Shown here piece after piece: positions 22,236-23,259 of a DNA stretch of 64,000 nucleotides (position 1 is the stretch's first letter; each line of letters starts with the position of its first letter). Source of the stretch: Candidatus Poribacteria bacterium (GTDB lineage Bacteria; Poribacteria; WGA-4E; WGA-3G); NCBI GenBank assembly GCA_963667365.1, contig OY763324.1, positions 4,414,509-4,478,508 on the forward strand, written 5' to 3'. Position numbers and translations under genes: made by a program. The notes beneath the pieces were generated by a model. The model worked only from the letters and a program-made list of their open reading frames with translations. It was not told the DNA's origin and did not search any database.

Positions 22236-22262
22236 GTCAACAGAATATTCGCAAATATTGTA

Positions 22263-22362
22263 TCCATTTCTCAGATTATGACGTATACATGTATACAGAT
22301 ATACGTGTATACATGCAAACATGCATACGATCATACGCGTATACTTGTATACGTCAGAAAAA
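22263..22362. promoter_or_regulatory. Cluster of degenerate TGTATAC/CGTATAC repeats immediately upstream of parA: putative partition centromere/operator
   Basis: ACGTATACATGTATACAGATATACGTGTATACATGCAAACATGCATACGATCATACGCGTATACTTGTATACGTCAG: at least 8 copies of a palindromic GTATAC-centred heptamer. Type Ib par loci place the centromere and autoregulatory operator upstream of parA. Confidence 0.45.
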
Positions 22363-22376
22363 TATAAGGAGCGGTA

Positions 22377-22997
22377 ATGAAGACCATCGCAGTATTATCA
22401 GGGAAAGGTGGCGCGGGGAAAACGACCTTGGCAGTGCACCTCGGAGTCGCCGCAGAGAAAGCTGGACACACAACCGCTATCATCGACCTCGACCCACAAG
22501 CAAGCGCATTGACATGGAGTGATAACCGAGAAAGCGATACACCAGCCGTCGTCTCAGCACAAGCCTCACGGTTACCGCAACTCGTTGAAGCTGCCAAGAA
22601 AAGCGGTGCCGACATCGTGTTCATCGATACCGCACCACATTCCGAAGCAGCAGGATTAGCCGCCGCTCGCATCTCAGACATGGTGTTGATCCCGTGTCGT
22701 CCTGCGATCCTTGACCTACACGCCATCGGTGCCACGGTCGAGATCACACGGATTGCCAATGTCCCCGCTATAGTCGTCTTAAACTCCGTGCCCTCGCGTA
22801 GTCCATTAGCAGATGAAGCACGGTCAGCAATAGACTCATATCAACTGGAAACCGCTCCCTGCCAACTCGGACAACGGATCGCTTTTGTCCACGCTCTGAC
22901 TGCCGGTCTCACAGCACAAGAATTTGAACCGAGAAGCAAGGCAGCTAACGAGATTAAGACATTATATAAATATATCGCTAAAAAGATAGGAGTATGA
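22377..22997 (+). CDS. parA: ParA/Soj-family partition ATPase
   Basis: 206 aa. The deviant Walker A KGGAGKTT (MKTIAVLSGKGGAGKTTLAVHLG) is present. AGGAG sits 8 nt upstream. The small size is typical of type Ib plasmid ParA/ParF. Confidence 0.85.
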   Translation: MKTIAVLSGKGGAGKTTLAVHLGVAAEKAGHTTAIIDLDPQASALTWSDNRESDTPAVVSAQASRLPQLVEAAKKSGADIVFIDTAPHSEAAGLAAARISDMVLIPCRPAILDLHAIGATVEITRIANVPAIVVLNSVPSRSPLADEARSAIDSYQLETAPCQLGQRIAFVHALTAGLTAQEFEPRSKAANEIKTLYKYIAKKIGV

Positions 22998-23001
22998 AGT
23001 T

Positions 23002-23259
23002 ATGGCAAAAAAACCGACTCTCTCGGATGCTCTGAACAGTGCCGGAAAAACCGAACAAGAGGAAACACTCCCCGAAAACTCACCTGCACCGACCCATGAG
23101 AAGACACCGCGTTCTCGTGTAGGGAAAAAACTGATTGCCGGACATTTTGACCCATCTGTGCATCGGCAACTCAAGCAGCTTTCTGTGGACGAGAGCACCA
23201 GTATACAGGATTTGTTGGCTGAAGCTATTGACGATCTGTTTCAAAAACATGGCGTATGA
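23002..23259 (+). CDS. Small ribbon-helix-helix partition partner protein (ParG/CopG-like)
   Basis: 85 aa, starting 5 nt after the parA stop. The N-terminus is basic and disordered. The C-terminal RHH-like region SVHRQLKQLSVDESTSIQDLLAEAIDDLF is present. The arrangement matches ParF/ParG-type systems. Confidence 0.55.
   Translation: MAKKPTLSDALNSAGKTEQEETLPENSPAPTHEKTPRSRVGKKLIAGHFDPSVHRQLKQLSVDESTSIQDLLAEAIDDLFQKHGV

What the first reader, a model, noticed from the sequence alone, without database searches (positions are those of the whole stretch)
22255..23259. Type Ib-like partition cassette (small ParA + RHH protein) with TGTATAC-repeat centromere candidate; the same heptamer recurs at the replication origin and inside a dispersed repeat module
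ParA is 206 aa with the KGGAGKTT deviant Walker A. It is followed 5 nt later by an 85-aa protein with a C-terminal ribbon-helix-helix-like segment, which is the ParF/ParG arrangement. Directly upstream is an array of 8 or more GTATAC-centred heptamers. Heptamers of the same family make up the AT-rich region of oriV at 38036-38222. They also form the core of module g (GGTGTATACCTGCATACGTGTATACTTGTATAC), which is scattered at 40860, 41150, 43490, 43740, 43880, 44380, 44590 and 50160. If the RHH protein binds TGTATAC arrays, the replicon carries many dispersed centromere-like sites. Alternatively, the repeat family has captured a centromere or operator fragment.
Basis: partly seen in the sequence, partly recalled or inferred. 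Interest (0 to 1): 0.6.

Follow-up and report, generated by a model that had tools for sequence, protein, structure and literature searches.

The report
Partition cassette with GTATAC box arrays
This is a plasmid-type DNA-segregation module: a small ParA ATPase, a small ribbon-helix-helix DNA-binding protein, and eleven arrays of its probable 8-bp binding boxes. It is an ordinary kind of system from a family nobody has studied, here in a sponge-symbiont (Poribacteria) genome.

Summary
parA (22377-22997, 206 aa, KGGAGKTT) is followed 4 nt later by an 85-aa protein whose C-terminal half is a ribbon-helix-helix (Pfam PF20605, E=6e-22). Directly upstream lie nine GTATAC-centred boxes. Their period is 8 bp, so they are octamers, not heptamers. 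The window holds 11 such arrays (68 boxes); shuffles give none.

In 80 related loci from many phyla, ParA sits next to this RHH. GTNNAC boxes are 6.6-fold enriched upstream of parA, and 81% share one 8-bp phase. The central dinucleotide tracks RHH beta-strand residue 44 (Leu with GTATAC, Asn with GTAAAC, Gln with GTCGAC). That makes the boxes the likely cognate sites, as in ParG/parH and omega/parS.

The 22-box array is not part of the Rep3 origin. The conserved origin module starts at 38543, and five related Poribacteria origins have no arrays.

Extra arrays also occur in other par-bearing Poribacteria loci, with unrelated flanks. They are probably additional centromere or operator sites. Passive duplication with the mosaic repeats is not excluded for the six module-g copies.

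Verdict: new member of a known kind, moderate interest.

The parts
22377..22997 (+). parA: small (206 aa) deviant-Walker-A partition ATPase, type Ib
   Evidence: ORF and KGGAGKTT motif. NF041546 ParA_partition scores 178.8 bits against a cut-off of 180. Best solved relatives are ParF 4dzz at 6.4e-15 and TP228-type ParA 5u1g at 6.7e-15.
23002..23259 (+). 85-aa centromere-binding protein candidate. It has a conserved N-terminal peptide (MAKKPSLxxAL), a disordered linker and a C-terminal ribbon-helix-helix (strand ~42-49, helices 51-64 and 68-82).
   Evidence: PF20605 Antitox_RHH at E=5.9e-22 over residues 39-84. The profile against PDB hits a CopG-family RHH at 3e-4. The AF2 model and Foldseek top hits (StnY, ParG, Arc, CopG) agree but are weak. 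Family alignment A2.
22283..22352 (.). Nine 8-bp boxes (core GTATAC, 5 perfect) ending 24 bp before the parA start codon. Proposed operator plus centromere.
   Evidence: TRF period 8, 8.8 copies. The boxes align across Poribacteria relatives while the flanks diverge.
21726..21747 (.). Three perfect boxes, ~157 bp upstream of the divergent 351-aa WD40 gene (20514-21569, minus strand)
   Evidence: Conserved in L003 at 8399-8420. A sigma-70-like promoter match adjoins it on the minus strand.
38041..38214 (.). 22-box degenerate array (6 perfect GTATAC), 164 bp upstream of the 441-aa gene (minus strand) and about 415 bp left of the Rep3 iterons
   Evidence: TRF 22.6 copies, 68% matches. It lies outside the origin module shared with L086-88.
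40867..40896 (.). Four perfect boxes (module g), 160 bp after the rep stop codon
41147..41176 (.). Four boxes (module g)
43490..43519 (.). Four boxes with a unique left flank, ~46 bp upstream of the WD40 gene 41546-43444 (minus strand)
43743..43772 (.). Four boxes (module g), inside a 143-bp perfect tandem duplication
43886..43915 (.). Four boxes (module g), second copy of the 143-bp duplication
44383..44412 (.). Four boxes (module g)
44559..44612 (.). Seven boxes (expanded module g)
50159..50196 (.). Three boxes plus one more after a gap, ~125 bp upstream of the 538-aa gene 48418-50034 (minus strand)
38543..40708 (+). Context, not part of the par system: the Rep3-type minimal replicon. It comprises an AT-rich stretch (38543-38629), 22-bp iterons x4.9 (38630-38736) and rep (39386-40708).
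   Evidence: Rep3_N and Rep3_C; iterons; 80-87% identical to L086-88 only over this span.

Best explanation
This is a type Ib (ParF/ParG-like) partition module.

Shown:
- A 206-aa ParA with a deviant Walker A is followed 4 nt later by an 85-aa protein with a conserved N-terminal peptide, a disordered linker and a C-terminal RHH.
- Arrays of 8-bp boxes (core GTATAC) lie directly upstream of parA and at ten other intergenic places in the window.

Inferred:
- RHH dimers insert their paired beta-strands (K42-L44-A46-H48 face) into the major groove. One dimer binds per 8-bp box, and dimers coat an array cooperatively.
- The 9-box array next to parA represses the operon and also nucleates a partition complex.
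- The N-terminal tails of the array-bound protein stimulate nucleoid-bound ParA-ATP, which moves and separates the DNA copies.
- The other arrays have 3 to 22 boxes, and most have at least 4. They act as further loading sites clustered around the Rep3 origin, or as operators for neighbouring genes. Five of them lie 25-165 bp upstream of a start codon. Under this reading the RHH protein doubles as a regulator, as omega does in pSM19035.
For: - Protein assignments.
- Gene pairing: about 70 of 80 loci found through the RHH alone have this ParA immediately upstream.
- Site enrichment: GTNNAC occurs 2.66 times per 140 bp upstream of parA against 0.40 elsewhere in the same loci.
- Phasing: 81% of perfect boxes in a locus share one 8-bp phase.
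- Covariation: the beta-strand triplet KLI/RLI goes with GTATAC in 32 of 36 boxes, seen in Poribacteria, sphingomonads, Oscillochloris, Elstera and a gammaproteobacterial MAG. SNV goes with GTAAAC in 18 of 30. KAV goes with GTGAAC/GTTCAC. KQ[IV]/RQV goes with GTCGAC.
- Conservation: the boxes upstream of parA align among Poribacteria whose ParA is only 83% identical, while the flanks do not align.
- Extra arrays in relatives: par-bearing Poribacteria loci each carry further arrays (L005 4, L006 4, L009 5). Some are perfect 16-bp x 8 tandem arrays, and the flanks are unrelated.
- Absence elsewhere: five Poribacteria Rep3 loci without the cassette (106 kb) have none.
- Precedent: ParG binds one dimer per ACTC box at 8-bp spacing, on an operator and on a centromere (PMC3130281). 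Omega binds arrays overlapping three promoters and needs at least 4 contiguous repeats to activate ParA (PMC9499535).
Against: - No binding data exist for any member of this family; a search for PF20605 found no paper.
- The RHH beta-strand was not formed in the monomer model, and the Foldseek E-values are weak.
- No sigma-70-type promoter was found on the + strand upstream of parA, so the operator role is inferred from position only.
- The six module-g arrays share flanks and are recent duplicates. They give no independent evidence of selection.
- GTATAC boxes in 8-bp phase also occur widely without this cassette. None of 120 metagenome stretches with such arrays carried it, and most look like eukaryotic microsatellites.
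- The covariation counts are not corrected for shared ancestry.
Confidence: 0.72

Rival explanations
1. Only the par-proximal array is functional. The other arrays, especially the six module-g copies, are passive. They were copied along with the mosaic intergenic repeat modules or expanded by slippage, and at most they titrate the protein.
For: - Module-g copies have identical boxes and shared flanks, and one pair sits in a 143-bp 100% tandem duplication.
- The window carries dozens of copies of other mosaic modules.
- The same 8-bp repeat arises as a simple microsatellite in unrelated, probably eukaryotic, DNA.
- The arrays are 80-88% alternating pyrimidine-purine steps, which is prone to slippage.
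Against: - Extra arrays recur in every par-bearing Poribacteria locus examined, with unrelated flanks (L005, L006, L009).
- They are absent from 106 kb of Poribacteria Rep3 loci lacking the cassette.
- The 3-box array at 21726 is conserved in L003 inside a 98% identical block.
- Five arrays with unique flanks lie 25-165 bp upstream of start codons.
Confidence: 0.3
2. The 22-box array at 38041-38214 is part of oriV, either as an unwinding element or as a host-factor site.
For: - It is AT-rich (30% GC), 80% alternating Y/R steps, and lies about 415 bp from the iterons.
- A near-consensus DnaA-box-like TTATCCAGA adjoins it, read directly from the sequence.
Against: - Homology with five related Poribacteria Rep3 origins (same iterons, same AT-rich stretch, rep 79-84% identical at the DNA level) begins at 38543 and excludes the array.
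- Those loci have no GTATAC array within 10 kb.
- The AT-rich stretch directly abutting the iterons (38543-38629) is the conserved candidate unwinding element.
Confidence: 0.07
3. The 85-aa protein is an antitoxin-type or stand-alone RHH transcription factor, as the Pfam family name suggests, and has no role in segregation.
For: Pfam names PF20605 'Antitoxin-like RHH'. The best PDB sequence hit is a CopG-family regulator.
Against: - No toxin-like ORF follows it.
- The RHH is C-terminal with a conserved N-terminal peptide. That is the ParG/omega layout, the reverse of RHH antitoxins (the antitoxin layout is my own knowledge).
- It is paired with a ParA in ~70 of 80 loci and on 87 PLSDB plasmids annotated RHH plus ParA.
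Confidence: 0.05
4. The arrays are chance AT-rich low-complexity sequence.
For: The GC content is low and the sequence is simple.
Against: - 52 TGTATAC hits against 8.5 expected.
- 11 phased arrays against 0 in 200 shuffles.
- Strict 8-bp phase, and conservation across species.
Confidence: 0.02

Closest known systems
TP228 ParF / ParG with the parH centromere and OF operator (type Ib)
   Same: - Small ParA, with ParF as the best solved relative.
- Small CBP with a flexible N-terminal tail and a C-terminal RHH.
- Sites upstream of the operon built of short boxes at an 8-bp period (4-bp ACTC box plus 4-bp spacer), one dimer per box, with 8 operator boxes and 12 centromere boxes (PMC3130281).
   Different: - The CBP is not in the ParG Pfam family (13.3 bits against a cut-off of 21.4).
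- The box is a 6-bp palindrome-like GTATAC with a 2-bp spacer.
- The arrays are spread over about 29 kb rather than forming one contiguous parH-OF block.
pSM19035 delta / omega with multiple parS arrays
   Same: - An RHH CBP binds arrays of short contiguous repeats at several places on the replicon.
- The arrays overlap promoters (copS, delta, omega), so the protein is both centromere binder and global regulator.
- At least 4 contiguous repeats are needed for ParA activation (PMC9499535). Most arrays here have 4 or more boxes.
   Different: - Omega uses 7-bp non-palindromic heptads (WATCACW).
- Its ParA (delta) is larger and of a different subfamily.
- There is no detectable sequence relationship between omega and this protein.
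pAD1 / pCF10-type RepA_N replicons with RepB (ParA) and RepC and 8-bp iteron clusters
   Same: - Clusters of 8-bp repeats lie between the initiator gene and a ParA-small protein pair (my own knowledge of pAD1; the layout is mentioned in PMC1626470).
- A metagenome plasmid of this layout (L189/L125) carries GTATAC boxes in 8-bp phase between rep and parA.
   Different: The initiator (RepA_N), the ParA (278 aa, KGGVGKT) and the small protein (129 aa, no Pfam hit) are all unrelated to those here.
MetJ repressor on tandem met boxes
   Same: An RHH dimer binds each 8-bp palindromic box, and tandem boxes are bound cooperatively. This is my own knowledge; the structure paper is cited as ref. 54 in PMC3130281.
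   Different: MetJ is a metabolic repressor with a co-repressor, has no ParA partner, and binds only 2-5 boxes.

Membership tests
Type Ib ParABS partition systems | Small Walker-type ParA (about 190-310 aa) without an N-terminal HTH domain, with a deviant Walker A KGGxxK[ST] | tested here: met
   206 aa with KGGAGKTT at residues 9-16. CbiA, AAA_31 and VirC1 hits cover the whole length.
Type Ib ParABS partition systems | Small non-HTH centromere-binding protein encoded directly downstream of parA | tested here: met
   The 85-aa RHH protein starts 4 nt after the parA stop. The pairing is conserved in ~70 of 80 loci.
Type Ib ParABS partition systems | Repeat-built centromere upstream of the operon that also serves as operator | tested here: inconclusive
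   A nine-box array ends 24 bp before the ATG, and the arrangement is conserved and phased across the family. Binding, repression and centromere activity cannot be tested with these tools.
NCBIfam NF041546 ParA_partition (equivalog) | Score at or above the curated cut-off of 180 bits | tested here: not met
   178.8 bits over residues 3-198, which is 1.2 bits short. This is a borderline near-member.
ParG family (Pfam PF09274) | Score at or above the gathering cut-off of 21.4 bits | tested here: not met
   13.3 bits, E=0.098, over residues 38-82. The ParG structure 1p94 is the second Foldseek hit, but at E=0.8. It works like ParG but is not a family member.
Ribbon-helix-helix superfamily (Pfam PF20605 Antitox_RHH) | Profile match above the cut-off, plus the strand-helix-helix secondary structure | tested here: met
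   78 bits against a cut-off of 27.2. The model has helices at 51-64 and 68-82. The strand did not form in the monomer model. Foldseek hits to Arc and CopG superpose at about 1 A rmsd over 34-37 residues.
ParG/omega-type CBP | Flexible N-terminal tail that contacts ParA and stimulates its ATPase | not testable with these tools
   The conserved N-terminal MAKKPSLxxAL (M1, L7, A10 and L11 in at least 90% of sequences) is predicted as a short helix at 7-13, followed by a low-confidence linker. Function is inferred only.
Rep3/iteron origin (as a component containing the GTATAC array) | The array is conserved with the iterons and AT-rich region in related origins | tested here: not met
   Homology with L086-88 covers only 38543-40708. 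Five related loci have zero arrays.

The most novel reading that the evidence does not exclude
The PF20605 RHH proteins and their 8-bp GTNNAC boxes form a simple, readable recognition code, in which beta-strand residue 44 sets the central dinucleotide. In Poribacteria this type Ib system has also been expanded into a distributed centromere. About 70 boxes in 11 arrays spread over about 29 kb around a plasmid-type Rep3 origin. That origin appears to sit in a 4.78-Mb contig, which is chromosome-sized. If so, a ParG-like system rather than a ParB-CTPase system would be organising a multi-megabase replicon, with the arrays propagated by the genome's own mosaic-repeat machinery.
Probability: 0.15. 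Interest if true: 0.6.

Novelty: new member of a known kind. Interest (0 to 1): 0.35.

Why it matters
- It gives a function to a widespread, unnamed protein pair that databases currently label 'antitoxin-like RHH'. The pair occurs on 87 PLSDB plasmids and in 111 loci among GTDB species genomes, across Poribacteria, cyanobacteria, Alphaproteobacteria, Acidobacteriota and Chloroflexota.
- It predicts the DNA site for each variant.
- The residue-44 to dinucleotide correspondence is directly testable, and it could supply orthogonal RHH-operator pairs.
- For uncultivated sponge symbionts, it marks which DNA is plasmid-derived and how it is probably inherited.
- It does not change the current picture of partition systems.

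Tried and rejected
- Exact-sequence look-ups of the window's ParA, the RHH and P0001 found no gene record. The source contig could therefore not be read. Its 4.78-Mb size is known only from the cluster tables.
- Motif-to-protein test: I scanned metagenome contigs for four perfect boxes in phase. None of the 120 stretches carried this ParA or RHH. Most have very low ORF density and perfect microsatellite-like repeats, so they are probably eukaryotic. The motif alone is therefore not diagnostic, and the test says nothing about specificity.
- The sigma-70 promoter scan found no + strand promoter for parA. Poribacteria promoters may differ, so I drew no conclusion.
- Single-sequence phmmer of the RHH against PDB found nothing meaningful. 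The family profile was needed.
- I tested whether the 441-aa gene next to the 22-box array is shared with relatives that have long arrays. It has no homologue there.
- I considered the Rep3 origin as the main chromosomal origin. There is no GC-skew or gene-strand switch at it in the window, and I did not pursue this.
- I considered Rep binding to the boxes. The iteron (AAGGTGTAGGTTTATGGGAGGA) is unrelated to GTATAC.

Full report
THE OBSERVATION. parA runs from 22377 to 22997 on the + strand. It encodes 206 aa and begins MKTIAVLSGKGGAGKTT. An 85-aa ORF follows at 23002-23259, after a 4-nt gap rather than 5. TGTATAC occurs 52 times in the window, against 8.5 +/- 3.9 in dinucleotide-preserving shuffles. 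GTATAC occurs 49 times against 12.9.

The repeat period is 8 bp, so the unit is an octamer box, nGTATACn, and not a heptamer. Tandem Repeats Finder reports 22283-22352 as period 8 with 8.8 copies. It reports 38035-38215 as period 8 with 22.6 copies, and it finds period-8 arrays at each 'module g' site. A phased-box finder gives 11 arrays with 68 boxes, and none in 200 shuffles of the window.

THE PROTEINS. The ParA scores 178.8 bits on NCBIfam NF041546 'ParA family partition ATPase', just below the 180-bit cut-off. Its best solved relatives are ParF of TP228 (6.4e-15) and a TP228-type ParA.

The 85-aa protein matches Pfam PF20605 'Antitoxin-like RHH' at E=5.9e-22 over residues 39-84. ParG (PF09274) matches only at 13.3 bits, below its cut-off. 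A family profile hits a CopG-family RHH structure at 3e-4.

An AlphaFold2 monomer model shows a short helix at residues 7-13, a low-confidence linker, and helices at 51-64 and 68-82. Its best Foldseek matches are all RHH proteins (StnY, ParG, Arc, AmrZ, CopG), with about 1 A rmsd over 34-37 residues but weak E-values.

The family alignment shows a conserved N-terminal MAKKPSLxxAL, a variable linker and a conserved GKKLIAGHFDP strand. A tail followed by a C-terminal RHH is the layout of ParG and omega. RHH antitoxins have the reverse layout (own knowledge).

WHERE IT COMES FROM. Homologues are from Candidatus Poribacteria, which are sponge symbionts. Identical RHH and Rep proteins sit on one 4,780,840-bp contig. 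The 20.4-32.7 kb part of the window is 95-99% identical in its genes to a 170-kb contig named ctg49268c (L003). The rest of the window encodes WD40 proteins, sulfatase, restriction-modification genes, an integrase and T9SS-tailed proteins. It has no tRNA gene and no housekeeping gene.

COMPARATIVE TEST OF THE CENTROMERE IDEA. A search of species-representative genomes with the RHH alignment found 111 related loci, of which the best 80 were kept. About 70 of those 80 have this ParA immediately upstream of the RHH gene. I took 64 non-redundant regions upstream of parA.
- GTNNAC hexamers occur 2.66 times per 140 bp there, against 0.40 in the rest of the same loci.
- 81% of perfect boxes in a locus share one 8-bp phase.
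- The box type follows the RHH beta-strand. Proteins with K/R-L-I at residues 43-45 have GTATAC in 32 of 36 boxes, in Poribacteria, sphingomonads, Oscillochloris, Elstera and a gammaproteobacterial MAG. S-N-V proteins have GTAAAC in 18 of 30 boxes. K-A-V proteins have GTGAAC/GTTCAC. K/R-Q-I/V proteins have GTCGAC. K-A-I proteins, from cyanobacteria, have a mixture.

Among Poribacteria whose ParA is only 83% identical, the boxes upstream of parA align one by one while the surrounding DNA does not. This is what is expected if the RHH strand reads the box, with residue 44 facing the central base pairs. It is correlative evidence and is not corrected for shared ancestry.

THE ORIGIN. The window carries a Rep3-type initiator at 39386-40708, with 22-bp iterons x4.9 at 38630-38736. 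Homology with five related Poribacteria loci (L086-88, L209, L210) covers only 38543-40708, which is the AT-rich stretch, the iterons and rep. None of those loci, 106 kb in all, has a GTATAC array. The 22-box array at 38041-38214 is therefore a neighbour of the origin and not one of its parts. It goes with the par system.

THE DISPERSED ARRAYS. Five arrays have unique flanks and lie 25-165 bp upstream of a start codon: 21726, 22283, 38041, 43490 and 50159. Six share the module-g flanks and are recent duplicates. One pair of these sits inside a perfect 143-bp tandem duplication.

Every other par-bearing Poribacteria locus also has extra arrays: L005 has four, L006 four and L009 five. Some are perfect 16-bp x 8 tandem arrays. 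In L001 and L008 one array is interrupted by an assembly gap. All are set in flanks unrelated to those of the window. Multiplicity of arrays is thus a conserved trait of these replicons, although individual copies spread by local duplication.

A CAVEAT. The motif alone is not diagnostic. Of 120 metagenome stretches with four perfect boxes in phase, none carried this cassette. Most look like eukaryotic microsatellites. The box arrays are 80-88% alternating pyrimidine-purine steps, a composition that expands easily. Two plasmid-like contigs (L125, L189) carry GTATAC boxes between a RepA_N initiator and an unrelated ParA-small protein pair, which is the pAD1 layout.

COMPARISON WITH KNOWN SYSTEMS.
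- TP228: 20 ACTC boxes with 4-bp spacers, an 8-bp period, form an operator (8 boxes) and a centromere (12 boxes). One ParG dimer binds per box (PMC3130281).
- pSM19035: omega binds arrays of 7-10 heptads that overlap three promoters, and at least four contiguous repeats are needed to activate ParA (PMC9499535).

The present system works like these. It is not a member of the ParG family and is 1.2 bits below the NCBIfam equivalog cut-off for its ParA. No paper mentioning PF20605 was found. In PLSDB the homologues, on 87 plasmids, are annotated only as 'RHH domain-containing protein' next to a ParA.

VERDICT. This is a real and correctly recognised type Ib partition cassette with its probable binding-site arrays. 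It is a new member of a known kind. The most useful new points are:
- the 8-bp box;
- the family-wide correspondence between protein residue 44 and the box's central dinucleotide;
- the separation of the 22-box array from the Rep3 origin;
- the conserved multiplicity of arrays in Poribacteria.

Whether the module-g copies function remains open.

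Noticed in passing
window 38543-40708; L086, L087, L088, L209, L210 (rep at 10001-11323 in each): The Rep3-type initiator has more than 2600 homologues, and the top 120 are all at least 73% identical. Many sit on multi-megabase Poribacteria contigs, including a 5.96-Mb contig whose name ends in _c. 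In the five loci read, rep always lies about 7 kb from gyrA-gyrB. A plasmid-type initiator seems fixed at one chromosomal position in a lineage. There is no GC-skew or strand-bias switch at it in the window.
   Followed up: partly
window, most intergenic regions (e.g. 21760-22240, 23260-24280, 40710-41540, 43520-45100, 50230-50880): Intergenic DNA is a dense mosaic of short repeat modules. GTCGGGAATCGGAGTTCCCTCCTACAG occurs 42 times, TTCCGTGATTCAGACAA 66 times and an AATCAACGGTATGAA hairpin module 47 times in 64 kb. The close relative L003 has the same genes at 95-99% identity but different mosaics between them.
   Followed up: partly
whole window versus L003: Proteins identical to the window's RHH and Rep lie on one 4,780,840-bp contig. 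The near-identical par region L003 is on a 170-kb contig named ctg49268c, and L005 is on a 143-kb contig whose name ends in _c. The names suggest circular contigs. This could mean an integrated versus a free form of one plasmid, or an assembly join. A tyrosine recombinase gene lies at 53343-54275.
   Followed up: no
L125 9453-9620 and L189 3202-3370: Metagenome plasmid-like contigs have a RepA_N initiator, then GTATAC boxes in 8-bp phase, then an unrelated 278-aa ParA (KGGVGKT) and a 129-aa protein with no Pfam hit. This is a pAD1-like layout using the same box type.
   Followed up: partly
L009 8935-9060 and 11683-11808; L005 18843-18960; L001/L008 17003-17228: Relatives carry long perfect tandem arrays, 16-bp units (two boxes) repeated 7.5-8 times at 100% identity. 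In L009 they flank the par cassette on both sides. In L001 and L008 the array is broken by a run of N, so it probably defeated short-read assembly.
   Followed up: partly
window 38016-38036 and 38255-38271: The 22-box array is bracketed by direct repeats of a CAGCAATCAG(CAG)TCA motif. Similar 'cagtaatcag' repeats occur near arrays in L001.
   Followed up: no
window 24280-27375; 54301-54885 and 55516-56610: A type ISP restriction-modification gene lies directly after the par cassette and is conserved in L003. Further along there is an MjaI-family endonuclease and an adenine methyltransferase.
   Followed up: no
L103, L116, L117, L119, L122, L134 and others: Perfect (TGTATACA)n or (TGTATACC)n repeats of 4-25 units lie in contigs with almost no long ORFs. 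These are probably eukaryotic microsatellites in host-associated metagenomes.
   Followed up: partly
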